From: Candidatus Aenigmatarchaeota archaeon
Lineage (GTDB): Archaea; Aenigmatarchaeota; Aenigmatarchaeia; PWEA01; JACQIF01
NCBI GenBank assembly: GCA_016432325.1
Contig: CP066684.1
Location: 265,018 to 329,017 of the forward strand
Direction: 5' to 3'
Length of the DNA stretch: 64,000 nucleotides
Part shown: piece by piece, positions 12,186 to 53,775 of the stretch
How the letters are laid out: each line of letters begins with the position of its first letter
Position numbering within the stretch: the first letter of the stretch is position 1
The notes under the pieces: generated by a model
Databases searched by the model: none
What the model was told of the DNA's origin: nothing
What the model saw: only the letters and a program-made list of their open reading frames with translations
Program-made: the position numbers and the translations under genes

Positions 12186-12287
12186 TTTCCGGTGTGGAAT
12201 CTTATCCGCGGCCTATAAATGAAAACGAGTGTTTGCTCAATCTCATATGTGAAGTAGATGTCAGTAGTTAACCATATCAAAGAGGAC

Positions 12288-12301
12288 TGGTGCGATGGCC
12301 G
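12288..12301 (+). repeat. Candidate att core, left copy
   Basis: TGGTGCGATGGCCG is identical to 25299-25312. A 14-mer match alone is within chance for 64 kb, so the call rests mainly on its position. Confidence 0.25.
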
Positions 12302-12391
12302 CTTCCCACCCCCAGAGTGCGGTGCGTCGTTAGGATAACTTTTACCGGCGTTCGTCTGTTGGGAGGGCTTGTATTTATAGATTTTTAGGGC

Positions 12392-13216
12392 TCACCCGAA
12401 TTGATTTTTCCAGTCTTCCAATATCTGTTTTAACCTTTTGACTTCCCTTTCTGGAAGGGGATTATGATGATCTACTATGTTTCTAGATAGTTTCACCGCT
12501 TTCTCAAATGTAACAGGCCATAGTTCCAAATCGAGAAGATTCTTAAAAACTTCGTGCTCTTTGCGCATTATGTAGACCAAATCCTCCAAGTCAGTATAGA
12601 ACAATTCGTGTGACCCGCGTGGGGCGTGCCATTTGTTAATCCCTTCCAATGCCTTTCTGGATTTAACCTCGTTGAGCAAACTACTTCTGATTCCTGCTTT
12701 GTGCCACCAGTCGGCACCGTATTTTTGTGATAGGGTATTATGAATAAAATGTCGCAGAGAATTTTCGAGTAAGTAGAGAATAACATACGGTTCTGCCATT
12801 CTTTGTGCATCTTCTTCCACCGCATCATCGATAAAGGGAATCGAGGAGGGCATTCTGAATCGAGGTTTTATTCTTCTCGGTATGTCTCTAGGGTCTTGAT
12901 CATCTTCTCTAAGGTCTACATGTAGCCATTGATCTAGAACACCGAGAAGCTTGAGCTGCGGTACCTTTTCATAGATTTCTGAGCGATCATTGGTGCCGAT
13001 TTGTCTAATCAGGCCATATCCATGATCGTTGAACCTATTGATGGCCTTGCTCATTGTAGGTTGTGGTATAGAAAGTCTCGTGGAAAGCTCCTTTACGGAT
13101 TCCTTTTTGCTGATGTTCTTTAGGATTCTTAGTCTAATTGGAGAATTCCCCACAGCCTCTTGAAACTTTTTTATCAAGTCTCTTTTTTCCCGGGTCAACA
13201 CCTTCAAGACAATCAC
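12392..13216 (-). CDS. wHTH-HEPN fusion protein (putative HEPN RNase with an N-terminal winged-helix domain)
   Basis: C-terminal RNIVDHHNP fits the HEPN R-N-x3-H motif. An N-terminal winged helix is indicated by ILKNISKKESVKELSTRLSIPQPTMSKAINRF. The gene is AT-rich relative to its flanks. Confidence 0.55.
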   Translation of the reverse strand: MIVLKVLTREKRDLIKKFQEAVGNSPIRLRILKNISKKESVKELSTRLSIPQPTMSKAINRFNDHGYGLIRQIGTNDRSEIYEKVPQLKLLGVLDQWLHVDLREDDQDPRDIPRRIKPRFRMPSSIPFIDDAVEEDAQRMAEPYVILYLLENSLRHFIHNTLSQKYGADWWHKAGIRSSLLNEVKSRKALEGINKWHAPRGSHELFYTDLEDLVYIMRKEHEVFKNLLDLELWPVTFEKAVKLSRNIVDHHNPLPEREVKRLKQILEDWKNQFG

Positions 13217-13425
13217 TGCCGCTTTATCTTTCTTGAAGTTCTCTGGCGTCTTATTGAGCTGGCGGACTTTCCTAATAGGCTCCCGATTTCCTCCGACGTG
13301 AGACCATTTGCAGTCATTATCTTAATCTGCGTCCTCTCATCTTTCCCCTGAGCCGCCACAACTGCTAATAGCCTATCAAGCTTGCGATTCGTTTCCCTCA
13401 AAAGCTCCGATGCTCTATCACTCAT
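13213..13425 (-). CDS. Small HTH DNA-binding protein (HTH_10 / sigma-70 region-4-like)
   Basis: 70 aa; LTSEEIGSLLGKSASSIRRQR; paralogous to the adjacent 81-aa ORF; overlaps its neighbours. Confidence 0.45.
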   Translation of the reverse strand: MSDRASELLRETNRKLDRLLAVVAAQGKDERTQIKIMTANGLTSEEIGSLLGKSASSIRRQRTSRKIKRQ

Positions 13426-13663
13426 TGTTGTCGCCCCCTTTGCCCTTTACGTGTTTTTTGGCCCTTCTTGCCCGCGAGAGGATGGTACTGACGCTCTCTG
13501 GAGTAGTGCCAACAACGCTGGCGATTTCTGACGGCCGCAGATTACATTGATCGAGGAGGGTTATCCTGTCCGTCATGGTCAAACCACGAGTACTCGACAA
13601 CGCTATTATACGCATAAGTTTATCCAACCTAACCGTAAGCTCTTTGAATTGTCTGTCGTCCAA
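13418..13663 (-). CDS. Small HTH DNA-binding protein (HTH_10 / sigma-70 region-4-like), paralogue of 13213-13425
   Basis: 81 aa; LRPSEIASVVGTTPESVSTILSRARRAKK. Confidence 0.45.
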   Translation of the reverse strand: MDDRQFKELTVRLDKLMRIIALSSTRGLTMTDRITLLDQCNLRPSEIASVVGTTPESVSTILSRARRAKKHVKGKGGDNNE

Positions 13664-13667
13664 GATA

Positions 13668-13985
13668 TCACCTTGCCCTAACGTAATATTTTTCCTTGCC
13701 CCCTCCCCGAGCTTCTCTGATTAAACCCGCATTCTGTAGAAGGGCAACATTCTGACTTATCTGTTGGATCGATTTGCTCGTCTCTGCCGCTATCTGACCT
13801 ACCGATCGTTTGCCGTTACATAGCTCATAAATCTTTTTACGCAGCGTTGATTTACCCAACATCCGTTGCTTCGATGCTTCCAAAACCTCAGCATTGACAA
13901 CGGTGGAGAGCTCGACTAGTTCTTGTAACCTATCTTGGATTTTATACAGGGCAAGGAGTATTTCAGCTTCGTTATCCTTAACCAT
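13668..13985 (-). CDS. ArsR/TrmB-like winged-helix transcriptional regulator
   Basis: 105 aa; ELCNGKRSVGQIAAETSKSIQQISQNVALLQNAGLIREARGGG. Confidence 0.45.
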   Translation of the reverse strand: MVKDNEAEILLALYKIQDRLQELVELSTVVNAEVLEASKQRMLGKSTLRKKIYELCNGKRSVGQIAAETSKSIQQISQNVALLQNAGLIREARGGGKEKYYVRAR

Positions 13986-14034: not shown

Positions 14035-14051
14035 ATATAACACTGTTATAT
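14035..14051. repeat. 17-bp perfect palindrome ATATAACACTGTTATAT (copy 1 of 4)
   Basis: Sits 50-66 bp upstream of the HTH/HEPN operon start (13985) and is followed by a TATTTAAGG TATA-like element. Confidence 0.6.
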
Positions 14052-14771
14052 TTCCTTGCCTGTCACAAACGGCGCCCTCCCGAGAAGCGCCTGCGCGAAC
14101 TCCGCCTCCGTTATGACCGCCGGCTTGAGCAACTTGATCCCCGTCAGCAGCTCCTTCGGCGCGTCCAGCTGGCCGCAGATGCCGATGGCGCGGGCTTCCA
14201 CGCCGTCCGCCGCCGAGAGTTTCTTGAGAATCTTTTCATCGGTGCCGAGGGAAAGCACCAGCACGAAATATTTTGTAAGCGCGTCTAGTATCGAAAGCTT
14301 GTCCGTATGAACGAAGCCATAACTCGGAACGGAGAAGGCCGCTGTTAGCAGTCTCTCCTGGACCTCCTTCGAATAGAAGAATCGTTCGAGTAGTTCATAA
14401 TCCTTCGTAGTCGGCAGGCGTCCGCCGGCCTCCTTGACGCGCTTCCTCGCGTCCGCGGCCGCGTCATCCCAATATTCCCACAGCGGCTTCAGCGTCGATT
14501 GGTAGAAGACCATTCGCCCGTAGCGGCCGTTGGCCGCCCGCTCGTACTTCTTGATGCCGCGGACGCGCTTCAGGTATTCGTCCCTCGAAACGTCAGCCTT
14601 CGCTACGTAGCCGCGGCTGCGCAGCCACTTCAGCTCGGCGATGAGATACTTCTTCGACGTCCGAACCGTCGCCTGAAGGGTCTTCAGGCTCTGAGGCGCG
14701 ATGAGCGTCATCAGATAGACGCTGAGCGTGAGAGTCTTTGCCAGCTTCGCGTAGGGCCGTGTGCGCTTCAT
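14046..14771 (-). CDS. Hypothetical protein (241 aa), element-borne
   Basis: High-GC ORF with coding-like composition; no recognisable motif. Confidence 0.35.
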   Translation of the reverse strand: MKRTRPYAKLAKTLTLSVYLMTLIAPQSLKTLQATVRTSKKYLIAELKWLRSRGYVAKADVSRDEYLKRVRGIKKYERAANGRYGRMVFYQSTLKPLWEYWDDAAADARKRVKEAGGRLPTTKDYELLERFFYSKEVQERLLTAAFSVPSYGFVHTDKLSILDALTKYFVLVLSLGTDEKILKKLSAADGVEARAIGICGQLDAPKELLTGIKLLKPAVITEAEFAQALLGRAPFVTGKEI

Positions 14772-14897
14772 AATACAACGTTCACGCGCCCGGTTAAATA
14801 GGCACGTGCCCTAAGGTTTCCTAAAAGCAACTTCTGACGCCCGACGAGGAACCTTAAGCGGGTGATAACTATATACCACCGCCGGTAGTAAACTGTC

Positions 14898-15176
14898 ATG
14901 GCAAACAGAACCCGCGCGACGTTCACACTCGGTGTAAAGACCGTCGCGCGCTTGCGCGAAGCGTCCGCGATTGCCGGCCTGCCGATGTCGCAGTTGTGCG
15001 AGCAGGCCATTCTTGAAAAGGCGCGGAGCCTTCTGAAAAACGGCAATGGCCAGAAGCAGTGCAACGGTTCTTCATCCCCGATAGTCTGCCTCATAGTCGC
15101 CATTCTGAAAAAGTTCCTGGGAATCCCAGAGCAGAACGGTAACAAGAACGGAGCTGGTAACGGTGCCAATAATTAG
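14898..15176 (+). CDS. Ribbon-helix-helix (CopG/Arc-like) protein
   Basis: N-terminal ATFTLGVKTVARLREASAIAGLPMSQLCEQAILEKA RHH pattern. Confidence 0.4.
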   Translation: MANRTRATFTLGVKTVARLREASAIAGLPMSQLCEQAILEKARSLLKNGNGQKQCNGSSSPIVCLIVAILKKFLGIPEQNGNKNGAGNGANN

Positions 15177-15292
15177 GTTTGAGTCTCTGGAGGAGTTCTT
15201 CGCCTACATCGAGGAGCAGGGACGCAAGCGCGGCGTGGTGCTGATGAAAGAGCCGCCTGCGGCACCGGCGCCCAAGAAGGAGGTCGAACGCC

Positions 15293-15577
15293 GTGGACGC
15301 TGACGAGATGCTTCCGAGCGTCAAGGGTTGGCGGTCGGCGGGTCTGAGCCAGATGGACATCGTGATAATGGTGCTCCGGCGGAACATGCCCGGCGTTTCG
15401 CAGAGGCTGTTGGCCGAAATACTGGACATAAAACAGCCGGCGATAGCGCGGCGAGTCAGGACGCTCGAGAGATTCGGCTTCCTGAAGGAACGAAAAGAGG
15501 TGGTTGAGTATGAAGGCAAGATACGAGAGCAAGAGATTCCTGTGCGGCGACAAGCGGTCGCTGAGATTGGAGCTTGA
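15293..15577 (+). CDS. Winged-helix (MarR-like) transcriptional regulator
   Basis: GVSQRLLAEILDIKQPAIARRVRTLERFGFLKE. Confidence 0.4.
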   Translation: MDADEMLPSVKGWRSAGLSQMDIVIMVLRRNMPGVSQRLLAEILDIKQPAIARRVRTLERFGFLKERKEVVEYEGKIREQEIPVRRQAVAEIGA

Positions 15578-15848
15578 AGGCGGGGACTTGGCGTTGTTGT
15601 CCAAAGGCCCGCTCGCGGCGACTGCGCACTACAAAGGCGAGGCGCGGCCTGTTGAGCTGCGCATCGGCGAACATAAAGAGGAGCTGCGTTTGGATTCGCA
15701 GAGAGGAACGATGGACGACGCGAAGAATTACGTCGTGACGATGAGCCGCGGCGCGTACGAGTCGCTAGGGCCCGGAATGTTCGCCGGTGTCAGCGGACGG
15801 GACTACTGCGGAGGGGAGATACATGTGTCGACCGAAGAAAAAGATTAG
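15504..15848 (+). CDS. Hypothetical protein (114 aa)
   Basis: ORF only; overlaps its neighbours. Confidence 0.2.
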   Translation: MSMKARYESKRFLCGDKRSLRLELEGGDLALLSKGPLAATAHYKGEARPVELRIGEHKEELRLDSQRGTMDDAKNYVVTMSRGAYESLGPGMFAGVSGRDYCGGEIHVSTEEKD

Positions 15849-15996
15849 GATCGTCAGCTCGCGGCTCACGACCGATATGAACGGCTTCCTGAGACGCGAG
15901 TGCTGCCGCCTGCGCGTCACAAGAAGCGAGTTCATACGCGTGTTCCTGTGGAAGGAATTGGCGCAACGCCTCAAGGCGATGGAGGCGTCGTTATGA
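15823..15996 (+). CDS. Ribbon-helix-helix (CopG-like) protein
   Basis: KKIRIVSSRLTTDMNGFLRRECCRLRVTRSEFIRVFL; the internal Met at 15823 is the likely start. Confidence 0.35.
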   Translation: MCRPKKKIRIVSSRLTTDMNGFLRRECCRLRVTRSEFIRVFLWKELAQRLKAMEASL

Positions 15997-16182
15997 CACA
16001 GCTCATAAGCTATCGCGGCCTGATGAGGCTCTACGAACTGTGGCGCGGCGGCTCGTCCATGCCTCCGGGATGGCGCGAGTCGGTTCGCCGTTACGTCGTT
16101 CATAAGCGCTGCCGCGTCCTGATTGACAGCGACGGCGTATCGCAGCTCGCCCAGGCGGAGCAGATGGCCAAGATGATGTTCG

Positions 16183-17475
16183 GTGGTGCGGATGCGCAAA
16201 TGCCTGTTTGAAGGATGCACGGCGGAGGTGGAGGATTCATACCCTCTCGATTTCTGCGCGGCGCACAGGGAGGCGCCGGATGAAAGAATTACGGCACCGA
16301 TGTCTCTTGATGAACTCAAAGAAATCCTCGGCGTCACAATCAAAGCCGACGACACGAACAAGGTTATAACGTTTCTCGCTATGCTGACTGCGTTCACCGA
16401 GGACGCGCAGATTAATGTTTCGTTCCGCGCGCCATCGAGCACCGGCAAGTCTTACATACCTTTAGAAATCGCTTCTCTCTTCCCCAAAGACGACATAATA
16501 GAAATCGCCTATGCTAGCCCGACAGCCTTCTTCCACGACCGCGGCGAGTGGGACGCGGAGACGGGATGCCTCAAAATAAACCTTGAGAGAAAGATAATGA
16601 TTTTCGTGGACATGCCGCACGATTCGCTGCTTCACCGATTGCGTCCGCTTCTTTCGCACGACCGCAAGGAATTAATCTTCAAAATCACAGACAGGAGCGA
16701 CAAGAAAGGATTGAGAACGAAGAACGTCATACTGCGCGGCTACCCTTCGGTTGTCTTCTGTACGGCCTCTTTGAAAATGGATGAACAAGAATCCACGCGC
16801 AACGTTCTGTTGAGCCCCGAAACGAACCAAGAAAAGCTGCGAGAGTCCGTTCTGCTCAAGATCCGCAAGAACGCCGATGTGAAGACATACCAAGACTGGC
16901 TGATGAGCGATTCGCGGCGCGAAATCCTGAAGGCGCGCGTCGAGCAGATTAGGAACGCGAAGATAGACAACGTCATAATCCCGGACACGGCGCGCATCCA
17001 AGAACGTTTCCTCAACCGCAAGCTGAAGCCGCGCGACATGAGGGACGTGGGGCGGCTGATGTCCATCGTAAAGGCAGTCGCCCTGCTTAACTTTTCCCAC
17101 AGGGAACGGCGCGGCAACGACCTTGTCTGCAGCGCGGACGACATAAACACTGGCTTCGCCGTCTGGGGCGACATAGAGCGGTCGCAAGACTTGGGAGTGC
17201 CGCCGTACATTCTGCGGGTTTTTGACGAGGTTATAATGCCGCTGGCCGGGAACGGGGGAATCCAGCGCAAGCGGATAGTCAGCAAGCACTACGAGGTCTA
17301 TGGCAAGCCTCTGCCCGACTGGCTGCTGAGACAGCAGATATTGCCATCGCTGGAGGCTGCCGGACTCGTCTATCAGGAGGTCGATCCCGAGGATCGGCGC
17401 CAGCTCCTCATCCAAGTTTCACCCGCACCCGCTACTCACGGTATCTCTGGGTCGCTGGAAAATACCGTGAGTTAA
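16183..17475 (+). CDS. Element replication/packaging-type P-loop NTPase with an N-terminal Cys-rich region
   Basis: 430 aa; N-terminal CxxC...CAAH; Walker A RAPSSTGKSY; Walker B KIMIFVDM. Confidence 0.5.
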   Translation: MVRMRKCLFEGCTAEVEDSYPLDFCAAHREAPDERITAPMSLDELKEILGVTIKADDTNKVITFLAMLTAFTEDAQINVSFRAPSSTGKSYIPLEIASLFPKDDIIEIAYASPTAFFHDRGEWDAETGCLKINLERKIMIFVDMPHDSLLHRLRPLLSHDRKELIFKITDRSDKKGLRTKNVILRGYPSVVFCTASLKMDEQESTRNVLLSPETNQEKLRESVLLKIRKNADVKTYQDWLMSDSRREILKARVEQIRNAKIDNVIIPDTARIQERFLNRKLKPRDMRDVGRLMSIVKAVALLNFSHRERRGNDLVCSADDINTGFAVWGDIERSQDLGVPPYILRVFDEVIMPLAGNGGIQRKRIVSKHYEVYGKPLPDWLLRQQILPSLEAAGLVYQEVDPEDRRQLLIQVSPAPATHGISGSLENTVS

Positions 17476-17488
17476 GACTGGGGGTAAG

Positions 17489-17503
17489 TATAACAGTGTT
17501 ATA
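17489..17503. repeat. Palindrome TATAACAGTGTTATA (copy 2 of 4; 15 bp perfect within the 17-mer)
   Basis: Lies exactly at the GC-to-AT compositional break after the rep gene (ends 17475). Confidence 0.6.
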
Positions 17504-17504
17504 T

Positions 17505-17978
17505 TTAAACAACAAATGTTGTTTGAAAATGGGTTAGCGTATCCTTTAGAGGCAGCCCACTTCCTATACAAATTTGGACTTTCATCGCACCGTCCTTAAA
17601 TTGGGTGTCGTATAGACTGCCCACATTGGATGGCTGATGATGCCAGTTCTTGTCTTTCCATATTATATCGGTACCAGCAGGCGAGACCACGACACCATAA
17701 ACATCGATAGTATCCCCATCTTTCGTATCTTGCCTAGCTTGCAGGAAGACGTTACCGCTAACTTGCGGTGCGATATCGAAAAAAAGTTGGTTTCCCACCA
17801 AGCGCATGTAACCGTATGTAAGATGTGATTCTTCCTGAGTCCCCAATCTCAGAACAAAGGTCATATTAGATTTAGACCCTTCCGTAATCCGAAGATGGGA
17901 TTCTTGGTTCTCGTAAAACTTCAGTTTCTTCATATCTCGGGAAAGGTTGAACTGACTTTTATAGTGCATAGCACTCAT
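17505..17978 (-). CDS. Hypothetical protein (AT-rich cassette)
   Basis: ORF 17505-18038 trimmed to an internal Met to avoid overlapping the divergent RM gene; no known motif. Confidence 0.3.
   Translation of the reverse strand: MSAMHYKSQFNLSRDMKKLKFYENQESHLRITEGSKSNMTFVLRLGTQEESHLTYGYMRLVGNQLFFDIAPQVSGNVFLQARQDTKDGDTIDVYGVVVSPAGTDIIWKDKNWHHQPSNVGSLYDTQFKDGAMKVQICIGSGLPLKDTLTHFQTTFVV
17507..17524. terminator. Palindrome AAACAACA-aa-TGTTGTTT between convergent genes (candidate bidirectional terminator)
   Basis: 8-bp perfect arms flanked by T/A runs, between the rep gene (+) and ORF 17505-17978 (-). Confidence 0.3.
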
Positions 17979-17985
17979 TAAGGTC

Positions 17986-20598
17986 ATGGAACGCCAAGAA
18001 GTCAGGGCACAGATCAAAACTCTTGTAGAAGACTTCAAGGCAAACTATACTTCATACAAATCCCGCTCCGAAGCTGACATAGAGCAACTTGTGCTACGAC
18101 TCTTCAAGATTCTTGGTTGGACAGACGTCAACGACGTTTTCCAGCAAGTTAAGACGCACCGAGGCGAAAAACGAGGTAGAGCCGACTTCGCCTTCAAAAT
18201 CAATGATAGGACAGTTTTCTTTTTGGAAGTAAAGAAGATGGGCGTACCTTTGGATAAAGAGGCGGATAGACAGGTTATATCGTATGCTCTATCTCAGAGA
18301 ATACCGTTCGCCGTATCGACAAACTTCGAGGAATTAAAGCTCTTTTGTGTTGAAGCGTTCGATAAGAAAGATCAGGTTTTCAGAGTCTTCAGGTACGAAG
18401 ATTACTCGATCAAAGATGATTTGTTTCTTCTGTCGAAGGAGAGTTTCGCTTCGGGTAACACGTTGAAAGAAGCTGAAAGCGAGGGTCGACTGAAGAAGAG
18501 AGTAACCATCGACAAACCGCTTTTGGAAGACCTCATGCATATCCGCAGTCTCGTAGCAGGCGACATAGAAAAAAGTTACCCGGACAAATACGAACTCAAT
18601 GAGCGCGACGAAATAATTCAGAGAATAATAGACCGCTTGATTTTCATACGTCGGTGTGAGGATGTGGGCATGAACCCAGAGGGTCAAACGCTCGAAGAAA
18701 TCAAACATCTTTCAGACGAGAAAGCGTATCCTAAACTGAAACAACTCTTCGCTAAGTATAATGATGTCTACGATAGCGGCTTATTCTCGATTGGCACGGA
18801 TAATGATTGTGATAGAATAACGATCGATGGGTCTATCATTCACAAGCTTGTAGGATACCTCTATGAATCCAAGAACGGTCAGTATATTTACAACTTTGAC
18901 TGGATAGATGCCGACGTACTTGGACAAGTGTACGAACAATATCTCGGTAAAATACTCGCACAAACAAAATCAGGTAAAACGAAACTTAAGGAAGGACAAG
19001 CGCATCGTAAGGAACAGGGAATATACTATACTCCCACCTACATTGTCAATTACATTATTAAGAACACTGTTGGCGCTAAACTAAAAGAGAGGAAAATTAA
19101 CGTGAACGATATTTCGATACTCGATCCTGCTTGTGGGTCTGGATCATTTCTTATCAAGGCATTTGACGAGATGTATAACTATAGACGGGGTAAAGGCGGC
19201 ACGGATCAGCGTAAATTTGATACACAAGGCATTTACTCCATTAAAACCGAAATTCTTAAAAACAATATTTTCGGTGTCGATCTTGACAACAAAGCCGTGG
19301 AAATAGCTAAATTAAATCTACTCTTAAAGGCGGCAGAGAACGGACGCCGATTACCGAAGGAATTAGACGCTCACGTCAAGCGTGGTAATAGTATTATAGA
19401 TGATGAAAAAGTTGTGGGCGCCGATGCGTTCCGTTGGGAGAGTGAATTTACAGATATCGTAAAACAAGGTGGATTTGACATCATTATAGGCAATCCGCCT
19501 TATGGGGCAGAGTTGAAGGAAAACGAAAGGGAATACATTTCTCGGAAATATGAAACCGCGAAATCGTACAAAAATACAGCGCTTGTTTTCATAGAGAAAT
19601 CGATGAATCTATTAAAAGATGGAGGATACTTTGGAATGATTGTACCAAAGTCCTTGGCATATAGCCAAGCGTGGAAACCATGTAGAGACTTCATTAAGAA
19701 GGACATGATTTTGTTAGTTGATGTTAGCAAAGCCTTTGAAGATGTTTTATTGGAACAAGTTATATTCATTATACAAAAGGGCAGTGGCAAAAAGTCCTAC
19801 ATTGTAGAAAACATTGATACCGGCTCTAAATTTACTGTGGACAAATCATTCATAGATAAAATCGATTCCTTGATAGTTCATGACAGTAGAGAAGACTTCG
19901 AAGTGTTCAAACATCTTATGTCCTCTCCATTACAAATGAAGAGTGTTTCCAAAACAAGTCGTGGATTGCCGCTCCAGAAGTTTATAACCAAAAAGAAAAC
20001 ACCATATAAAATATTTCGTGGGGTCAACATTTCCCGCTATCACCTTGGGGATAGTACAGACTTCTTAGAGAAAATCGATGCTACAAATACAAAGGTTAAA
20101 CAGCTTCTTCAACCTAAGATAATTTCACAGAGAATAGTGGCTCATGTAACACGCCCAAAGGACCATATCATAATCATGTCTGCATTGGATGGAGAAGGAC
20201 AGTTAAATGTGGATACTGTAGAAAATACCACTCTAACCGATAAGAAATACAAGCTAGAGACTATTTTGGCTATAATGAACTCCGAATTGATTTCATGGTA
20301 TGCATACAGGTATATCTTCGGTAAAGCCATTAGAACTATGGATTTCGATGATTACTATGTTGGTAAAATACCTCTGCCTCATACATCTAAATCTGTTGAA
20401 ACTGCTCTAACCGAGAAGGTTTCAAGAATAAATGACCTTAACAAAAAAGTTCATCAGTTGGGCGATAAGAAAACGGCCGAGACTGCTAAGCTCGACGAAG
20501 AAGTCAAGAAGACTAATGCGGAGATAGACGAACTCGTCTACAAGATATACGGGGTAACGGACGCCGAGAAGAAGACTATTAAAGAAAGCTTAAATTAA
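17986..20598 (+). CDS. Type IIG (fused REase-MTase-TRD) restriction-modification enzyme, gamma-class N6-adenine methyltransferase
   Basis: 870 aa. HsdR_N-like N-terminus with PD-(D/E)xK (ADFAF...FLEVKK); motif X VLGQVYEQYL; GIYYTPTYIV; motif I ILDPACGSGSFL; motif IV IIGNPPYGAE; ~300-aa C-terminal target-recognition region. ~40% GC. Confidence 0.7.
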   Translation: MERQEVRAQIKTLVEDFKANYTSYKSRSEADIEQLVLRLFKILGWTDVNDVFQQVKTHRGEKRGRADFAFKINDRTVFFLEVKKMGVPLDKEADRQVISYALSQRIPFAVSTNFEELKLFCVEAFDKKDQVFRVFRYEDYSIKDDLFLLSKESFASGNTLKEAESEGRLKKRVTIDKPLLEDLMHIRSLVAGDIEKSYPDKYELNERDEIIQRIIDRLIFIRRCEDVGMNPEGQTLEEIKHLSDEKAYPKLKQLFAKYNDVYDSGLFSIGTDNDCDRITIDGSIIHKLVGYLYESKNGQYIYNFDWIDADVLGQVYEQYLGKILAQTKSGKTKLKEGQAHRKEQGIYYTPTYIVNYIIKNTVGAKLKERKINVNDISILDPACGSGSFLIKAFDEMYNYRRGKGGTDQRKFDTQGIYSIKTEILKNNIFGVDLDNKAVEIAKLNLLLKAAENGRRLPKELDAHVKRGNSIIDDEKVVGADAFRWESEFTDIVKQGGFDIIIGNPPYGAELKENEREYISRKYETAKSYKNTALVFIEKSMNLLKDGGYFGMIVPKSLAYSQAWKPCRDFIKKDMILLVDVSKAFEDVLLEQVIFIIQKGSGKKSYIVENIDTGSKFTVDKSFIDKIDSLIVHDSREDFEVFKHLMSSPLQMKSVSKTSRGLPLQKFITKKKTPYKIFRGVNISRYHLGDSTDFLEKIDATNTKVKQLLQPKIISQRIVAHVTRPKDHIIIMSALDGEGQLNVDTVENTTLTDKKYKLETILAIMNSELISWYAYRYIFGKAIRTMDFDDYYVGKIPLPHTSKSVETALTEKVSRINDLNKKVHQLGDKKTAETAKLDEEVKKTNAEIDELVYKIYGVTDAEKKTIKESLN

Positions 20599-20664
20599 CG
20601 TCTGAGACTTGACCCAATACACCATATGGAAAGGGTTTAATAGCTTTGTCCATTCACATTATAC

Positions 20665-21759
20665 ATGGTCAGGGATAGTCTAGAATTCTTTGATGCTGAC
20701 GGAGAATTTTTAAAAAGAATAGAGTCCGTCAAGTCAATTGGACCTACGCCCCGTAAGGTCATTCTCTTTATCCAAGATTCAGAAATGCCTTTTTTGAAAC
20801 TGATTAAGCAATGGATTCCTGCTAGATATGAAGGCACTATTTGTAAAACAGAAGAATTTGATAGATTCGACGTAGCGGAGCTTACTATAAAAAATAGAGA
20901 TTTAGAAGGCGCTTTATACAAATGTTCTCACTGTGGTCAAGAAATTCCCAAAGAAGAACTTTTTGAATATGGACAAAACATGCAGAACTTACTTGTATTC
21001 CCTAAAAATAGTCCCGTCTTTTTCTTGGTAACAAATAAAGGTTCCCATGAACTGGACGCCGATTTAGGCTTCTTCAAAGCACTTTATCCCTTCGTATCTC
21101 GTGTACGATTCCGTTCGTACCAACTAAAACAAATGCTAGACGTTCTTCCTAATAAAACCGATATAGTTATTTCAGAATACGTTGCTAAACGTTATTATGG
21201 CGAAAAAAAGACAATCGAACTTCACCAAAAGGTGGACGTTGATACGGCATTTCTTCAAGCGGCTAAGGAAAATACCTGGATTGACAGCATTCTTCTGGAA
21301 GTTGATGGAAAGAAAATACGATTGGCGCGAAACGGAAGAATACAATACTATCAGTCGTATCACTTTAGCAACATCTTCAGTCAACTGATTAAACCAATAC
21401 TGCATAACCTAACAGCAAACTATGAAAATGTTCTAAGAAATCGCTCTCGGACAATTGCTAACCCGGCGGCCAAACCTATAGTATTTAAAACGGAAAAACC
21501 AGTTTTTACTTCTCAGAATGCTGGTATCGAACTGATAAAACGACTTGGCCGCCTACGGGGAATAGAAATAGCACAAGTCAATAGCGACGACCAGATGCCG
21601 GAGTTGATGGTAAAAGATTACACGTCTGGAGCAAGCTACTCAATAGACGTCGTAGCCGAGAATATGATAGTTATGACACCACAGACAGGCGTACGAGAAA
21701 TTTCTCTTAATAGAGTCGTGAATAAAATACTAGAAGATTTTGACTGTGAGGTAATCTGA
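20665..21759 (+). CDS. Hypothetical protein (364 aa) with a CxxC pair, AT-rich cassette
   Basis: CSHCGQ motif; ~36% GC; its stop overlaps the next start (TGATG). Confidence 0.4.
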   Translation: MVRDSLEFFDADGEFLKRIESVKSIGPTPRKVILFIQDSEMPFLKLIKQWIPARYEGTICKTEEFDRFDVAELTIKNRDLEGALYKCSHCGQEIPKEELFEYGQNMQNLLVFPKNSPVFFLVTNKGSHELDADLGFFKALYPFVSRVRFRSYQLKQMLDVLPNKTDIVISEYVAKRYYGEKKTIELHQKVDVDTAFLQAAKENTWIDSILLEVDGKKIRLARNGRIQYYQSYHFSNIFSQLIKPILHNLTANYENVLRNRSRTIANPAAKPIVFKTEKPVFTSQNAGIELIKRLGRLRGIEIAQVNSDDQMPELMVKDYTSGASYSIDVVAENMIVMTPQTGVREISLNRVVNKILEDFDCEVI

Positions 21760-22889
21760 TGGTTGCTCCAAAACACACGAAAGATGATGTAGACAGTTAT
21801 CGGGAGGCCGTTTTGGCTAATATTGTTTTTAAAAAGTATTTGAAAGAAATATGGAATGTTGGATACGATCTATATTTCGGTGCTAGACTAGTCTATGATA
21901 AAGACAAACCAGCGGTAACGCCCGATTTGTTTCTTAAAGGTACTTCGAGTAATGATATTGTAGGGGATATTAAACGTTCTTTGCCGTCAAATTTCCCTAA
22001 CAGTTTGGAGTCCAAAAACTATATGGAATGGGCCAGGGGGGAAGGTGGAAAAGGTTTCGTTATGCAGATGTTGGATGTAAGTCTAACACAAAAGTTAAAG
22101 AAATATGATAGCGAATTTCTCAATTGTACGAACCCACATGATATTTTATTTATCCTGCACGAAAGAGCACAGAGAACATACATGCTCTGGAAGAGACATT
22201 TACCGTACATCCCACGAAACAATCTGGTTGGTCTACAATATCATGTTTCTAGAGGGTCTAGCGTCAAAACACTTAATATCGGAATACTAGACGGACAGTT
22301 CTCAGATCAGGGCTTAGGCGAATTCTTCAGAGATAACCCAATAGCTTGGCACTTTAACGAAGAATCCCAGCTAATCGGAGAATACAAAATTGCTGTAGTT
22401 GACGAGGGCCATCAGCCACCAAAAGAATATGTGATGCTCATTCTGTGGCAAAACATTTTTGATGAAATTCTGAGAAACAAATACTCAGAAAGTCTTTTGG
22501 ATAGAGTGAAAATACTAGAACAAGGATTAAATCCAGTTATAGTTGTGGATTTGGATACCATTATAGAATACCTTAGTAAATATTATATATTACCATATTA
22601 TGATACCGCCGACAACTCACAGGACACAAGGAGACAGTTCACGAGAAGCCTTGTAAAAGATGCAATGAACTCATTTACTGAAATTGATATAACCGATGTA
22701 ACGAAGGTAGACGGGGGAACAAATCCCGCGTATAAAATAGTCTATCAACCGCTGTCTAAAGGACAGGATGCCTTGCAAGTCTTAATAGACGCGTTGTCTG
22801 ATGCGGGAATTTTAGAAAAGGAAGTGGTCGATATCCCGAGACAGATTGATCTAACATCATTTACCGATAAAGACAGTGATACTCGATAG
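21759..22889 (+). CDS. Hypothetical protein (376 aa) with an N-terminal PD-(D/E)xK-like nuclease motif
   Basis: TPDLFLKGTSSNDIVGDIKR (PD...D-I-K); translationally coupled to the upstream ORF. Confidence 0.4.
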   Translation: MVAPKHTKDDVDSYREAVLANIVFKKYLKEIWNVGYDLYFGARLVYDKDKPAVTPDLFLKGTSSNDIVGDIKRSLPSNFPNSLESKNYMEWARGEGGKGFVMQMLDVSLTQKLKKYDSEFLNCTNPHDILFILHERAQRTYMLWKRHLPYIPRNNLVGLQYHVSRGSSVKTLNIGILDGQFSDQGLGEFFRDNPIAWHFNEESQLIGEYKIAVVDEGHQPPKEYVMLILWQNIFDEILRNKYSESLLDRVKILEQGLNPVIVVDLDTIIEYLSKYYILPYYDTADNSQDTRRQFTRSLVKDAMNSFTEIDITDVTKVDGGTNPAYKIVYQPLSKGQDALQVLIDALSDAGILEKEVVDIPRQIDLTSFTDKDSDTR

Positions 22890-23275
22890 AGTGTAGAGAG
22901 TTAGAGGAGTAGCCAATTGAAGTCCCAAAAATAAGGTATATAAACATCCTCACCAATCAATTATTCAATATGCTCCCCAGTCTTGTACGCCGGCTCGTCC
23001 GGCGGCAACACTGGGTTATTCTCTCTTTTCCTTGATGCATTCTAAGGCTTCTAGAAGGCTGTGTTTGACGCAACGACTAGACTACGAATTTCGATGTATC
23101 AAACAATTTAGATTTTATTCTAACTCCACCTTCTGCTTCCACCTGGGCCACTCGGTGATTCCCCCTTTCACTCGTAATTCTCCGTGCCTTGGAAATGTTG
23201 GTGGCCTGAACCAGAACCTTTCCTAATCTATGGACGTTAATCCAATCATCACTGTCCACGGGAAAAGTTACTGGG

Positions 23276-23674
23276 TTATTCATCTGTCTCACTCATTTTT
23301 CCTGCTTTTACAAACTTGTCAAAAACTCGTTGTACCTGCTCGCCAGAAAGGGCCAATTCTGTGGAGACAAAAAAGACGGATAGTTTCGTATTACCAGCAC
23401 TCTTTTCTCTCAATATTAGTTGTGTTATCTCCTTTTCTGCTTCCATATCACTTATCCTCCTGTCTTTAGTGATCGATTCGTGCATCCCATGCATTTCATG
23501 TTGCCTTCTCAATGAGACTACCTCTTGGCGAAGGAAATCAACCTCATCCTCAAGACTTCTCAGTCTCTGTTGTTGCGCCCTAAAAACAGGCAGAGGGATG
23601 GATAGACGCTCGAAAACGGTTTGTATAGGCTCGTCTTCTCCAACAATGTCTATTGCACGTCTGATGGTTGCCAT
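23276..23674 (-). CDS. Hypothetical coiled-coil protein (132 aa)
   Basis: AT-rich ORF downstream of the integrase on the same strand. Confidence 0.3.
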   Translation of the reverse strand: MATIRRAIDIVGEDEPIQTVFERLSIPLPVFRAQQQRLRSLEDEVDFLRQEVVSLRRQHEMHGMHESITKDRRISDMEAEKEITQLILREKSAGNTKLSVFFVSTELALSGEQVQRVFDKFVKAGKMSETDE

Positions 23675-23678
23675 ACAT

Positions 23679-23942
23679 TCACCTACTTATCATACTCTTT
23701 ACCTTTTGCAAAAACTCCGGATCTGGTGATTCTATGTGCAGTATTTTGTCTTCAACTTCCTTCTTGTTTTGGTGGCTCATTATCAATGGAATGGGCATGT
23801 TGTTTTTTACCTTTACCAGAACAATGCTCGCTGGCATTATATCTTTATCCATTTGAGATAGATTAGACGCGAATTCTTTATCAAAGAGATCCCCAAGGCC
23901 CACACCATGCAATCGCACGCTCTCTATTTGTTCCATGAACAC
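23679..23942 (-). CDS. Hypothetical protein (87 aa)
   Basis: ORF between the integrase and 23276-23674, same strand. Confidence 0.3.
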   Translation of the reverse strand: MFMEQIESVRLHGVGLGDLFDKEFASNLSQMDKDIMPASIVLVKVKNNMPIPLIMSHQNKKEVEDKILHIESPDPEFLQKVKSMISR

Positions 23943-24048
23943 TCACCGTATATTATTGGTGCTACAGCCACTTAAACTGAAGACGGGGTGGTTTTACATC
24001 ATTCCGAAGTCTTTATTTAAGGCTATGTATCATTGACCATAGTGTTTT

Positions 24049-24065
24049 ATATAACACTGTTATAT
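24049..24065. repeat. 17-bp perfect palindrome ATATAACACTGTTATAT (copy 3 of 4)
   Basis: Overlaps the integrase stop codon at the AT-to-GC compositional break. Confidence 0.6.
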
Positions 24066-25238
24066 TCTCTCCCTCATCCTCTCTTCCATCCTGTCCATGA
24101 GAGCCGTCACGAGCTCCTCGGATATAACGAAGCCCTTGTTGCTTTCCATCGTCTGCGCCTTCGCCTTCTCCGAAATCGGATGGCGGCATCGCACGCACCA
24201 GTTCCTGTCCATAGTATTAGACGTGCCGCAGACGCCGCACTCTTTCGGCCGCAGATGGCCGTTCGTCTCCTCCTTCTTCGGAACGAGGCCGTGAATCCTC
24301 AATATAGCCTCGTCCATCTGCGCACCGCTGAGATGGACATAGATTGCGGCCATCTTTGAAGCGCCGGTCCAACCAAGATAAGCCTTCATCTGCTGTTCGG
24401 TCAGCTCGGTGGCCAGCCGCGTCGCGGCCGTGTGGCGGAAGAGGTGTGGGTGCAGCCTTTTCCGATAGCCGCTGCGCTCCTTGATGCGCCTCAGCAGCGT
24501 TTTGAACGTCGAGTAGCTCATCGGTCTGCCGTAGTCCGTCAGCCACAGCGCGTCGTCGCCGTTTTTCGTCGGGTGGGATTCCAAGTAGGCGGACAGGGCT
24601 GGAATGGAGGAAACGATGCGCACGCGCCGCGGGCCGGTCTTGCCGCGGACGTGGATGACGCCGCCGTACTCGTCGAAGGCGGCGTCCTTGTATCTCATGG
24701 AGAGGAGTTCCCCTATCCGCACGCCGCTCTCCCAGAGGGTCCACAGCATGGCGCGGTCGCGCGCCGAACGCGCGTGACGCAGAAGCAGCCGCAGGTCGTC
24801 CTCGCTCACCAAATCCTCGGGAAGCTTTCTCTTGTTCGAGGGCTCGTTCGTCTTTATCCATCGAACCTCCGGCGGGATTTCCTCGTCGTTGCCACGCAGC
24901 CACTTGAAGAAGCGTTTGATGCACGCCCGCTGATCGACCTTCGTTCGCTCTGTCCAGTCGCGCTTCTCCTGTATGCGGCTGACGAGTTCCATCAGATCGT
25001 CCTTGTCCATCTCATCGAAGTTCTTGTGCGCGAGGCGGCCGATGTTGGTCATGCGGATGGCGTAGAAGACCTGGCGATAGACACTGCCCCCGCCGACGCC
25101 GAACTGCCTTATGAACTTGAGAAGCAACTCCCTGTTGGGCTCTGTTATCCGCCCGTCCGTCCGCAGGCGGCGCATCGCCGACTCAAGGCGGTTGTCTATG
25201 TTGTAGATGTCGTGGACTTCAAGACTCTGCTGCGCCAT
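24060..25238 (-). CDS. int: Tyrosine recombinase / phage-type integrase
   Basis: 392 aa; C-terminal catalytic region HLFRHTAATRLA...LGWTGASKMAAIYVHL with the R..H..R..Y residues. Confidence 0.8.
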   Translation of the reverse strand: MAQQSLEVHDIYNIDNRLESAMRRLRTDGRITEPNRELLLKFIRQFGVGGGSVYRQVFYAIRMTNIGRLAHKNFDEMDKDDLMELVSRIQEKRDWTERTKVDQRACIKRFFKWLRGNDEEIPPEVRWIKTNEPSNKRKLPEDLVSEDDLRLLLRHARSARDRAMLWTLWESGVRIGELLSMRYKDAAFDEYGGVIHVRGKTGPRRVRIVSSIPALSAYLESHPTKNGDDALWLTDYGRPMSYSTFKTLLRRIKERSGYRKRLHPHLFRHTAATRLATELTEQQMKAYLGWTGASKMAAIYVHLSGAQMDEAILRIHGLVPKKEETNGHLRPKECGVCGTSNTMDRNWCVRCRHPISEKAKAQTMESNKGFVISEELVTALMDRMEERMRERI

Positions 25239-53769: not shown

Positions 53770-53775
53770 CTGAAA

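What the first reader, a model, noticed from the sequence alone, without database searches (positions are those of the whole stretch)
17489..24065. AT-rich 6.5-kb cassette bounded by a 17-bp palindrome and carrying a Type IIG RM enzyme plus two coupled unknown genes: a candidate undescribed defence island
Base composition drops from ~58% GC to ~38-42% GC exactly at palindrome copy 2 (17489-17503) and returns to high GC at copy 3 (24049-24065), which overlaps the integrase stop. The cassette encodes an 870-aa fused nuclease/gamma-class N6-adenine methyltransferase/TRD protein (Type IIG). It also encodes two translationally coupled genes with no recognisable family (20665-21759 and 21759-22889), plus small ORFs. 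This has the shape of a secondarily acquired defence cassette inside an integrated element.
Basis: partly seen in the sequence, partly recalled or inferred. Interest (0 to 1): 0.85.

Follow-up and report, generated by a model that had tools for sequence, protein, structure and literature searches.

The report
RM cassette carrying rare archaeal nuclease pair
A foreign, AT-rich 6.5-kb DNA cassette in a tiny archaeon carries an ordinary restriction enzyme plus a very rare, always-paired two-gene module (a DNA-clamp-like protein and a probable nuclease). In other archaea that module repeatedly sits next to restriction and other immune genes, so it is a good candidate for an undescribed archaeal defence system.

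Summary
GC falls from about 0.57 to 0.40 between two copies of a 15-17 bp palindrome. Inside are an intact 870-aa Type IIG enzyme and two genes overlapping by 1 nt that match no Pfam, NCBIfam, PADLOC or PHROGs model.

The three genes are not a conserved block. IIG and geneA each have their own TATA-like box at -29 to -22, and no other locus repeats IIG-A-B.

The A-B pair is the real unit:
- It occurs in 17 loci from at least three archaeal lineages (Aenigmatarchaeota, Halobacteriota, Asgard).
- A is always directly upstream of B, with 1-29 nt overlap in the 11 loci measured, and the two proteins diverge in step (r 0.95).
- The B family has only 25 representatives among 1.84 billion proteins.
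- B carries an invariant PD...(D/E)xK nuclease signature.
- The moderate-confidence model of A resembles RdgC.
- In 7 of 11 informative contexts the pair lies within a few genes of Type I, II, IIG, III or IV restriction genes. Elsewhere it lies beside BrxL or LmuB ATPases, integrases or IS elements.

Best reading: an autonomous, mobile, nuclease-based defence module, so far undescribed.

The palindrome has four copies. All four sit on compositional breakpoints, which suggests recombination junctions, but this was not tested.

The parts
17489..17503 (.). Palindrome copy 2 (TATAACAGTGTTATA). Left boundary of the low-GC cassette, 13 nt after the stop of the P-loop gene.
   Evidence: GC change point 17459 (17430-17492).
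17957..17964 (+). TATA-like box TTTTATAG at -29 to -22 from the IIG ATG. Inferred promoter of a leaderless transcript.
   Evidence: Sequence read. Promoter role inferred from the known archaeal TATA position (about -26).
17986..20598 (+). Type IIG restriction-modification enzyme, 870 aa. N-terminal PD-(D/E)xK nuclease (RADFAF...FLEVKK), gamma-class N6-adenine MTase (DPACGSG, NPPY) and a TaqI_C target-recognition domain.
   Evidence: Pfam, PADLOC REase_MTase_IIG 1.6e-93, PDB adenine MTases 4e-17.
20636..20643 (+). TATA-like box TTTAATAG at -29 to -22 from the geneA ATG. Inferred separate promoter for the A-B pair.
   Evidence: Sequence read.
20665..21759 (+). geneA, 364 aa. Orphan family. Model shows tandem TBP-like domains resembling RdgC and CENP-L. 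Invariant residues: Y141, P142, R146, R150, K175, R176, W205, D207, R222, G224, D318, Y319.
21759..22889 (+). geneB, 376 aa. Orphan family with invariant TPD56...G69-(D/E)70-x-K72 (PD-(D/E)xK signature) plus E216, P221 and W230. Overlaps geneA by 1 nt.
23077..23942 (-). Three small overlapping or adjacent minus-strand genes (87, 132 and 71 aa), convergent with geneB. No family hits.
   Evidence: (also called on Logan contigs).
24050..24064 (.). Palindrome copy 3 (TATAACACTGTTATA). Right boundary of the cassette. Overlaps the integrase stop codon.
   Evidence: Change point 24071.
24060..25238 (-). Tyrosine recombinase/integrase, 392 aa, with a C-terminal CxxC...CxxC zinc ribbon. Host-like GC of 0.60.
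   Evidence: Pfam Phage_integrase 1.5e-22. Below the NCBIfam XerA/XerC cut-offs. PHROG integrase. Relatives with the same Zn ribbon lie next to the pair in L001 and near it in L046.
14036..14050 (.). Palindrome copy 1. Junction between low-GC segment A (11.68-14.03 kb) and host-GC segment B. Overlaps the stop of ORF 14046-14771(-).
53777..53791 (.). Palindrome copy 4. Lies on another GC breakpoint, a few nt upstream of the probable GTG start of an Lhr-type helicase.
14046..17475 (.). Segment B (GC 0.575), plasmid- or provirus-like. Contains a 241-aa unknown (-), a MarR-like wHTH (15293-15577) and a 430-aa orphan P-loop protein (16183-17475, Walker A APSSTGKS).
11734..13985 (.). Segment A (GC 0.45). 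Contains HicB/HicA, an HTH+HEPN protein (PADLOC PDC-M34B) and three small wHTH genes.

Best explanation
The cassette 17.49-24.06 kb is horizontally acquired low-GC DNA inserted between a resident plasmid/provirus-like segment and a tyrosine integrase in a Candidatus Aenigmatarchaeota genome. It carries two independent defence-type transcription units.

(1) An ordinary, apparently intact Type IIG restriction-modification enzyme.

(2) A self-contained, translationally coupled pair, A-B. B is the effector. It has an N-terminal PD-(D/E)xK nuclease core (D56, D/E70, K72) followed by a conserved helical and C-terminal region. A is an arginine/lysine-rich protein built of TBP-like domains in an RdgC-like arrangement.

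Proposed mechanism, all inferred: A and B form a complex. A binds DNA and senses a feature of invading or replicating foreign DNA, such as ends or recombination/replication intermediates. It holds B inactive until then, and B then cleaves DNA. The module has no methyltransferase of its own and works with or without neighbours. It tends to ride directly downstream of RM operons of any type, or with accessory ATPases (LmuB-like, BrxL-like) or a PIN nuclease, and it travels on integrase- or IS-borne islands.

The four identical palindromes mark junctions between compositionally distinct DNA. They are most simply read as the core sites at which segments were joined by site-specific recombination.

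Shown: composition, gene content, pair conservation, neighbourhoods, motif invariance.
Inferred: nuclease activity, complex formation, DNA sensing, defence phenotype, recombination at the palindrome.
For: Foreign origin:
- GC is 0.40 against 0.57, with sharp change points at the palindromes.
- The closest homologues sit in 35-42% GC contigs.

Type IIG.

Separate promoters: TATA-like boxes at -29 to -22 before both IIG and geneA.

The pair is a unit:
- A lies immediately upstream of B in all 17 loci found.
- The genes overlap by 1-29 nt in the 11 loci measured.
- A and B divergence co-vary: Pearson 0.95, Spearman 0.65.

Rarity and spread:
- 25 representatives at 50% identity among 1.84e9 proteins.
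- Named sources are Aenigmatarchaeota, Halobacteriota and Candidatus Borrarchaeum.

Nuclease signature: of only 9 invariant columns in 19 sequences, P55, D56, G69 and K72 form PD...(D/E)xK, with D/E always at position 70.

Fold of A:
- Foldseek's top PDB hit is RdgC, E 9e-6, probability 1.0.
- The top BFVD hits are phage RdgC-like proteins, E 3e-6.

Defence neighbourhood:
- Type I RM-A-B-PIN in L008/L009.
- Type III Mod-Res-DUF2779-A-B-x-integrase in L047.
- MutH-like REase + C5 MTase-A-B-N6/N4 MTase in L043.
- Type IIG + SNF2 + Cas4-like in L010.
- Mrr and ResIII in L013.
- A-B-BrxL with a 4-nt overlap in L006.
- LmuB-A-B plus a Type II MTase in L046.

Mobile-element links: integrases or IS elements in L001, L008, L011, L013, L046 and L047.
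Against: - No experiment exists. The defence role rests on guilt by association.
- The B structure prediction failed (pLDDT 31.7). No profile or PDB match confirms a PD-(D/E)xK fold, and hhalign to local nuclease domains was insignificant.
- The A model is only moderate: pLDDT 66.7, and only one of five models folded. TM-scores to RdgC are 0.3-0.36.
- In L004, L011 and L012 the pair has no clear defence gene beside it and sits among housekeeping genes.
- Many contexts are short metagenomic contigs.
- For the palindrome, no empty-site or alternative arrangement was found. The same arrangement appears in four SRA assemblies, and related integrases carry no such palindrome.
- Copy 4 looks like part of a promoter.
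Confidence: 0.58

Rival explanations
1. IIG, A and B are one three-component system. A and B would be accessory subunits that need the Type IIG enzyme, for example to process restricted DNA or to control the enzyme.
For: The three genes are co-directional and only 66 nt separate IIG from A. In other loci the pair also follows RM operons directly: hsdS-A with a 2-37 nt gap in L009/L008, and Res-DUF2779-A in L047.
Against: - No other locus has IIG-A-B.
- The RM partner differs every time (Types I, II, IIG, III, IV) and is absent in L001-L004, L006, L011 and L012.
- geneA has its own TATA-like box.
- A specific subunit relationship with five unrelated enzyme architectures is unlikely.
Confidence: 0.1
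2. A-B serves the mobile element rather than the host. It could be an addiction or exclusion module, or a recombination/replication function (an RdgC-like recombination modulator plus a nuclease) of integrase-borne elements.
For: - The pair lies next to tyrosine integrases with the same C-terminal Zn ribbon in the window, L001 and L046, and next to another integrase in L047.
- It lies next to IS elements in L008 and L011 and T4SS pilin genes in L043.
- RdgC and phage RdgC-like proteins are recombination-associated.
- A small wHTH regulator sits upstream in L001-L003 and L011.
Against: - Defence systems are themselves typical cargo at the integrase-proximal ends of elements.
- The recurring immediate neighbours are RM, BrxL, LmuB, PIN and Mrr genes, not replication or partition genes.
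- L004 and L012 show the pair in chromosomal contexts with no element genes in view.
Confidence: 0.2
3. A-B is a highly divergent Lamassu (ABC-3C) effector plus middle-component pair. It has mostly lost its SMC-like LmuB, or borrows an ATPase in trans.
For: - L046 has LmuB (PADLOC 1.6e-29, near full length) directly followed by A and B.
- B's layout, an N-terminal PD-(D/E)xK domain plus a C-terminal domain in about 370 aa, parallels LmuA, which is a Cap4 nuclease plus CTD (bioRxiv 10.1101/2025.06.23.660979).
- One B homologue (P0014) hits Pfam MC7, an ABC-3C middle component, at 2.6e-4.
- L006 has a BrxL-type ATPase coupled to B.
Against: - Only 1 of 11 informative contexts has an LmuB, and the window has none.
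- No PADLOC LmuA or LmuC model hits A or B.
- The MC7 hit is below Pfam's cut-off (21.4 against 27 bits), occurs in one of 19 members, and lies in B rather than in the middle gene.
- A, at about 360 aa, is much larger than LmuC.
Confidence: 0.12
4. The palindrome is a transcription-factor operator or promoter element, a TATA-containing dyad bound by one of the island's many wHTH proteins. On this reading it is not a recombination site, and its position at GC junctions only reflects its being intergenic.
For: - Copy 4 lies a few nt upstream of the probable GTG start of the Lhr helicase, which places a TATA-like TATAATATAA at -27 to -18.
- A 15-bp dyad with a 1-nt centre fits a dimeric HTH operator better than a tyrosine-recombinase core, which normally has a 6-8 bp spacer (established knowledge).
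- The island encodes at least five small wHTH proteins.
Against: - At copies 1-3 no annotated gene starts at the right distance. Only ORFs of 5-28 codons follow.
- Four of the six compositional breakpoints in 64 kb coincide with the four copies (P about 1e-5).
- Polarity is consistent in 4 of 4 copies: centre C has the low-GC DNA on the left, centre G on the right.
- Perfect identity of all four copies with no degenerate copies is unusual for a regulon.
Confidence: 0.3

Closest known systems
Type IIG restriction-modification enzymes (Eco57I/MmeI-like; PADLOC REase_MTase_IIG)
   Same: ORF 17986-20598 has the full single-chain architecture: a PD-(D/E)xK nuclease, a gamma N6-adenine MTase with NPPY, and a TaqI_C target-recognition domain.
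   Different: Nothing notable. At 870 aa it is at the short end of the family. Its specificity and cleavage are untested. It is not PglX/BREX: NCBIfam scores are far below the cut-offs and there are no PglZ or BrxC genes.
Lamassu / ABC-3C (LmuA nuclease effector, LmuC middle component, LmuB SMC-like ATPase)
   Same: - B resembles LmuA in layout (N-terminal PD-(D/E)xK-type nuclease plus C-terminal domain) and size.
- One locus (L046) has LmuB-A-B.
- The proposed logic of a sequestered nuclease released on sensing DNA follows the Lamassu model.
   Different: - There is no LmuB in the window or in most loci.
- No sequence match to LmuA or LmuC models.
- A is twice the size of LmuC and has an RdgC-like rather than a small globular fold.
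RdgC (recombination-associated DNA-binding protein) and phage RdgC-like proteins
   Same: RdgC is the top structural match to the geneA model in PDB and BFVD. The alignments cover most of the chain.
   Different: - No sequence similarity: Pfam RdgC is not hit and identity is about 9%.
- TM-scores are only 0.3-0.45.
- RdgC is not known to be paired with a nuclease or linked to RM loci.
- The model confidence is moderate.
Single- or two-gene PD-(D/E)xK defence nucleases (Shedu SduA, HamA of Hachiman, Mrr/Type IV enzymes)
   Same: A nuclease effector of the restriction-endonuclease superfamily, carried in defence islands, without its own methyltransferase.
   Different: No hit to DUF4263, DUF1837, Mrr_cat or any PADLOC model. 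It has an obligatory RdgC-like partner instead of a helicase or a fused sensor domain.
Genes 'embedded' in or appended to RM and other defence operons (PADLOC PDC/HEC candidates, Payne et al. bioRxiv 10.1101/2024.01.29.577857)
   Same: The same genomic logic applies: unknown genes recurrently appended to RM operons of different types.
   Different: A and B match none of the PDC/HEC models in PADLOC-DB v2.0.0.
Integron cassette arrays / tandem accretion of integrative elements at one att site
   Same: A tyrosine recombinase gene sits next to a series of compositionally distinct segments, each delimited by the same short repeat.
   Different: - The integrase is not IntI-type: 39 bits against a 265-bit cut-off.
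- The repeats are identical 15-17 bp perfect palindromes, not attC sites.
- The cassettes are multi-gene, 2.4-6.5 kb, with their own promoters.
- Recombination is not demonstrated.

Membership tests
Type IIG RM enzyme (ORF 17986-20598) | Nuclease, N6-adenine methyltransferase and target-recognition domain in a single polypeptide | tested here: met
   HSDR_N 1.9e-6 (residues 51-120, motif D...EVK), Eco57I 1.1e-34, N6_Mtase 5e-23 and TaqI_C 3.9e-9. PADLOC REase_MTase_IIG 1.6e-93.
Type IIG RM enzyme (ORF 17986-20598) | Catalytic motifs intact (motif I DPACGSG, motif IV NPPY, nuclease D...ExK) | tested here: met
   Read directly in the translation.
Type IIG RM enzyme (ORF 17986-20598) | Site-specific methylation and cleavage at a fixed distance from the site | not testable with these tools
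   Needs biochemistry or methylome data.
BREX (PglX-centred) | A PglX scoring above the family cut-off, together with PglZ and BrxC/BrxL in the locus | tested here: not met
   NCBIfam BREX PglX models score 56-114 bits against cut-offs of 400-900. No PglZ, BrxC or BrxL lies in 17.5-24 kb.
PD-(D/E)xK nuclease superfamily (geneB) | Catalytic signature D...(D/E)xK in conserved positions | tested here: met
   P55, D56, G69 and K72 are invariant and position 70 is always D or E across 19 sequences down to 22% identity.
PD-(D/E)xK nuclease superfamily (geneB) | Restriction-endonuclease-like alpha-beta-beta-beta-alpha-beta core fold | tested here: inconclusive
   The AF2 model failed (pLDDT 31.7) and no further structure jobs were available.
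PD-(D/E)xK nuclease superfamily (geneB) | Significant profile match to a described PD-(D/E)xK family | tested here: not met
   No Pfam hit in any of 19 members. No PDB hit with the family profile. hhalign to local HSDR_N, Mrr and Cas4-like domains gave probability below 2%.
RdgC family (geneA) | RdgC-like fold | tested here: inconclusive
RdgC family (geneA) | Sequence membership (Pfam RdgC) | tested here: not met
   No Pfam hit at E<=1 in 8 members, apart from weak Zn-ribbon matches.
Lamassu / ABC-3C | An SMC-like ABC ATPase (LmuB) encoded in the system | tested here: not met
   Absent from the window cassette. Present next to the pair only in L046.
Lamassu / ABC-3C | LmuA or LmuC homology of the partner genes | tested here: not met
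   No PADLOC LmuA or LmuC hit. Only one sub-threshold MC7 hit, in P0014.
Any defence system in PADLOC-DB v2.0.0, including PDC candidates (geneA, geneB) | Match to a system's HMMs | tested here: not met
   0 families at E<=0.01.
Integron | IntI-type integrase | tested here: not met
   TIGR02249 scores 39 bits against a cut-off of 265. The best matches are XerC/XerA-like, also below their cut-offs.
Integron | attC-type sites and promoterless single-gene cassettes | tested here: not met
   The sites are identical 15-17 bp perfect palindromes. The cassettes are multi-gene with their own TATA-like boxes.

The most novel reading that the evidence does not exclude
Two linked claims. (1) A-B is a previously undescribed immune system, known so far only from archaea. 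An RdgC-like DNA-binding sensor licenses a PD-(D/E)xK nuclease, and the module plugs in downstream of any RM type or recruits LmuB- or BrxL-type ATPases. (2) The identical 15-17 bp palindromes are the recombination sites of a cassette-capture platform run by the Zn-ribbon tyrosine integrase. This would be a functional analogue of an integron that assembles multi-gene defence cassettes in a DPANN genome.
Probability: 0.12. Interest if true: 0.85.

Novelty: new variant of a known kind. Interest (0 to 1): 0.62.

Why it matters
[quoted passage not shown] It argued that archaea-specific systems are being missed by homology searches (PMC12988326).

The A-B pair is a concrete, testable candidate:
- It is a compact two-gene module of about 2.2 kb with clear catalytic residues to mutate.
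- It is conserved as a unit across DPANN, Halobacteriota and Asgard archaea.
- It is appended to every major type of RM system.

If it is active, it would add an RdgC-like sensor to the known repertoire. It could also show how nuclease modules cooperate with RM or with SMC/BrxL ATPases.

The palindrome-junction pattern, if recombinational, would show how a reduced DPANN genome assembles its defence island.

Tried and rejected
- Family scans of A and B against Pfam, NCBIfam, PADLOC and PHROGs found nothing. Permissive Pfam scans of 19 B and 8 A homologues gave only a sub-threshold MC7 hit and weak Zn-ribbon hits.
- PDB sequence searches with family profiles found nothing.
- The AF2 model of B, built from a 4-sequence alignment, failed. 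The afdb50 fold library was unavailable.
- tblastn of B against plasmids and of A against phages gave no match.
- The search for related loci with B alignments in genome contigs and viral contigs found nothing, so the source MAG is not in the genome collection. Two alignments were too divergent to search.
- The integrase search found one relative in genomes, a 34% match in Methanolobus profundi with no palindrome. It found none in JGI metagenomes.
- The palindrome pattern in IMG/VR gave 24 scattered matches, 22 of them on contigs with a single copy, at or below my rough chance estimate. It gave none in the 13 loci held at that point.
- hhalign of the B N-terminus against local PD-(D/E)xK domains was insignificant.
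- tRNA and Rfam scans of the window were empty, so there is no tRNA att site.
- A 14-nt direct repeat at 12288/25299 was considered as island att sites and rejected as chance, with about 0.5 expected.
- The 177-aa antisense ORF 17505-18038 was rejected as a gene.
- The literature held no RdgC-like defence system.

Full report
**1. Source and setting**

Proteins identical to the two unknown ORFs are deposited as hypothetical proteins HYS81_01920 and HYS81_01925 of a 'Candidatus Aenigmatarchaeota archaeon' MAG, on a contig of 874,869 bp.

The window flanks are ordinary chromosome. They carry phosphoglycerate kinase, an F420-dependent oxidoreductase ending at 11680, a DEAD-box helicase from about 25.4 kb, then TtuA, ThyX, acetyl-CoA synthetase, ribonucleotide reductases, ThiI and an Lhr helicase. 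The window has no tRNA or Rfam match.

**2. Observation check**

*Composition.* GC is 0.402 for 17505-24048, 0.575 for the segment to its left (14053-17487) and 0.600 for the integrase gene to its right. Local maximum-likelihood change points fall at 17459 (support 17430-17492) and 24071 (24063-24155).

*Palindrome.* The core TATAACA[C/G]TGTTATA occurs exactly four times, at 14036, 17489, 24050 and 53777, against 0.01 expected. No degenerate copies appear. Copy 3 overlaps the integrase stop codon, and copy 1 overlaps the stop codon of ORF 14046-14771(-). Copy 2 lies 13 nt after the stop of the P-loop gene.

*Segmentation.* An unbiased binary segmentation of the whole window gives six GC breakpoints: 11590, 14070, 17459, 24150, 53732 and 60334. 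Four of them lie 26-93 nt from the four palindromes, with P about 1e-5 for at least 3 of 4 within 60 nt.

*Polarity.* Copies with centre C (1 and 3) have the lower-GC DNA on their left. Copies with centre G (2 and 4) have it on their right. That is 4 of 4 consistent, which is not significant on its own (P = 0.125).

*Same arrangement elsewhere.* The cassette in the same arrangement appears in Logan assemblies of four SRA runs.

**3. The island**

The region 11.68-25.3 kb is composite.
- Segment A (GC 0.45) has HicB/HicA, an HTH+HEPN protein matching the PADLOC candidate PDC-M34B at 1.5e-37, and three small wHTH genes.
- Segment B (GC 0.575, host-like) has a 241-aa unknown, a MarR-like wHTH and an orphan 430-aa P-loop protein. 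It looks like a resident plasmid or provirus remnant.
- Segment C is the cassette in question.
- Next comes a 392-aa tyrosine recombinase with a C-terminal zinc ribbon.

**4. The Type IIG enzyme**

ORF 17986-20598 is ordinary. It has HSDR_N-type nuclease, Eco57I/N6_Mtase and TaqI_C domains. It matches PADLOC REase_MTase_IIG at 1.6e-93 and solved adenine MTases at 4e-17. The motifs D...EVK, DPACGSG and NPPY are intact.

It is not a BREX PglX. Scores are far below the cut-offs and no partner genes are present.

A TATA-like TTTTATAG lies at -29 to -22 from its ATG. This fits a leaderless archaeal transcript, an inference from the established position of archaeal TATA boxes.

**5. The pair**

geneA (20665-21759, 364 aa) starts 66 nt after the IIG stop. 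It has its own TATA-like TTTAATAG at -29 to -22. geneB (21759-22889, 376 aa) overlaps it by one base, TGATG.

*Rarity.*
- A word-indexed search of 5.8 billion protein clusters found only 1-3 homologues of each.
- An exhaustive HMMER profile search of 1.84 billion representatives found 25 for B. Most of them (18 of 25) are full length, at 345-391 aa.
- Named sources are a Halobacteriota MAG and Candidatus Borrarchaeum (Asgard). The rest are metagenomic.

*Conservation as a unit.*
- In all 17 loci recovered, a geneA homologue (hmmsearch E 1e-58 to 1e-158) lies directly upstream of the geneB homologue on the same strand.
- In the 11 loci measured, the two genes overlap by 1-29 nt.
- Pairwise divergences of A and B track each other, Pearson 0.95.
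- The pair is therefore one co-inherited unit, very probably a complex.

**6. What the proteins look like**

*geneB.* Across 19 sequences down to 22% identity only nine columns are invariant. Four of them, P55, D56, G69 and K72, together with an always-acidic residue 70, form 'TPD-x12-IG(D/E)xK(R/K)SL'. This is the classical PD-(D/E)xK arrangement, and it follows a long N-terminal helix. The other invariants are Y116, E216, P221 and W230.

The AF2 model failed (pLDDT 31.7). No profile, PDB or hhalign comparison confirms the fold. The nuclease assignment therefore rests on the motif, and I put it at about 0.75.

*geneA.* The best AF2 model has pLDDT 66.7 and pTM 0.62, and only one of five models folded. 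It consists of repeated TBP-like/KA1-like alpha-beta domains.
- Foldseek ranks E. coli RdgC first in the PDB, E 9e-6, probability 1.0.
- Foldseek ranks phage RdgC-like proteins first in BFVD, E 3e-6.
- The invariant residues are rich in Arg and Lys: R146, R150, K175, R176 and R222. This is compatible with nucleic-acid binding.
- A CxxC knuckle is present in some members only.

**7. Neighbourhoods**

Eleven contexts show at least three neighbouring genes. In seven of them the pair lies within a few genes of restriction genes (directly adjacent in four, two to five genes away in three), covering every major type.

| Locus | Arrangement |
|---|---|
| window | Type IIG, then A-B |
| L008/L009 | hsdR-x-hsdM-x-hsdS-A-B-PIN |
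| L047 | Type III Mod-Res-DUF2779-A-B-207aa-integrase(-) |
| L043 | MutH-like Type II REase + C5 MTase-A-B-N6/N4 MTase, with T4SS pilin genes |
| L010 | A-B convergent with Cas4-like, unknowns, Type IIG (1.6e-198) and a DrmD-like SNF2 |
| L013 | ResIII, integrase fragment, M78-HTH/DUF4411, Mrr, 469aa, A-B |
| L046 | Zn-ribbon integrase ... LmuB (1.6e-29)-A-B ... Type II MTase |

Other contexts:
- L006/L007 have A-B-BrxL (9e-118), with BrxL overlapping B by 4 nt.
- L012 (Asgard) has a weak Csm3-like RAMP gene after B.
- L001-L003 and L011 have a small wHTH gene upstream and an integrase or IS4 downstream.
- L004 is plain chromosome next to ribonucleotide reductase.

The L001 integrase is 29% identical to the window's and has the same Zn ribbon.

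The window's IIG-A-B block is therefore not conserved. What recurs is 'pair appended to an RM or defence operon on an integrase- or IS-borne island', with variable third partners: PIN, BrxL-type ATPase, LmuB-type ATPase or DUF2779.

**8. Mechanism**

*Shown:* a co-inherited, translationally coupled pair; an invariant nuclease-type signature in B; a defence-island and mobile-element habitat; foreign composition.

*Inferred:* A and B form a complex. A, RdgC-like and basic, binds DNA and gates B. B cleaves DNA once A senses a feature of invading or replicating DNA. The pair has no methyltransferase and occurs with or without RM, so self/non-self discrimination cannot rely on a cognate methylation mark. 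Sensing of DNA ends or replication/recombination intermediates is the most plausible alternative, as shown for Lamassu, where the Cap4-type nuclease LmuA is sequestered and then released (bioRxiv 10.1101/2025.06.23.660979). Sensing of modified DNA (Type IV-like) is another possibility.

The LmuB-A-B operon in L046 and one sub-threshold MC7 hit hint at an evolutionary link to ABC-3C/Lamassu. Membership nevertheless fails on the defining LmuB and on sequence.

**9. The palindrome**

A 15-bp dyad with a single central base fits a dimeric HTH operator better than a canonical tyrosine-recombinase core. Copy 4 overlaps a plausible promoter of the Lhr helicase.

Against that, copies 1-3 have no gene at promoter distance. 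All four copies coincide with compositional junctions with consistent polarity, and they are perfectly identical. I therefore favour junctions of site-specific recombination (tandem accretion or cassette capture by the adjacent integrase) at about 0.45, against operator/promoter at about 0.3.

No empty-site or rearranged variant could be found. Relatives of the integrase show no such site.

**10. Novelty and score**

The IIG enzyme is a new member of a known family. The island is a typical archaeal defence/mobile-element island.

The A-B pair matches no described family or defence system, including the PADLOC 2023 candidates. It is extremely rare yet spread across three archaeal lineages, and it has a distinctive RM-appended habitat. 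It is a credible new defence-system candidate of the familiar 'sensor + PD-(D/E)xK effector' kind, so I rate it a new variant of a known kind.

Interest is 0.62. It is testable and fills a recognised gap in archaeal immunity (PMC12988326), but the evidence is associative and both structural assignments are soft.

Noticed in passing
window 53777-53791 and 50914-53772(-): The fourth palindrome copy lies a few nt upstream of the probable GTG start of an Lhr-type helicase. It supplies a TATA-like box at -27 to -18. It also marks a drop in GC from 0.60 to about 0.51 that lasts to about 60.3 kb.
   Followed up: partly
window 11734-13985: A second low-GC segment (GC 0.45) ends exactly at palindrome copy 1. 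It carries HicB/HicA, an HTH+HEPN_Swt1 protein matching the PADLOC candidate PDC-M34B (1.5e-37), and three consecutive small wHTH genes.
   Followed up: partly
window 16183-17475: A 430-aa protein with Walker A APSSTGKS and a possible C-terminal wHTH has no match in Pfam, NCBIfam, PADLOC, PHROGs or PDB. It may be the replication protein of an integrated plasmid-like element.
   Followed up: partly
window 42444-45467 and 45505-47316: Two adjacent ribonucleotide reductase large-subunit genes, one class II with a B12-type N-terminus (1007 aa) and one of 603 aa. This is unusual redundancy for an 875-kb genome.
   Followed up: no
window 31329-32894(-): The ThyX ORF is 521 aa with two Thy1 matches, which suggests a tandem-fused thymidylate synthase.
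   Followed up: no
L046 6443-11092: An LmuB-type SMC-like ATPase (PADLOC 1.6e-29) is followed directly by A and B, with no canonical LmuA or LmuC. This may be a Lamassu variant that uses the A-B pair as its effector module.
   Followed up: partly
L006 912-3418 and L007: A short BrxL-type ATPase (481 aa, no Lon protease part, PADLOC 9e-118) overlaps the B stop by 4 nt. No other BREX genes are nearby.
   Followed up: partly
L047 2776-13542: The operon Type III Mod-Res-DUF2779-A-B is followed by a 207-aa gene and a convergent integrase. This mirrors the window's layout of RM-A-B-small ORFs-integrase.
   Followed up: partly
window 24060-25238(-), L001 2917-3708(-), L018, L046 3949-5142(-): Archaeal tyrosine integrases sharing a C-terminal CxxC...CxxC zinc ribbon recur next to the pair and in Methanolobus profundi. 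All score below the NCBIfam XerA/XerC cut-offs.
   Followed up: partly
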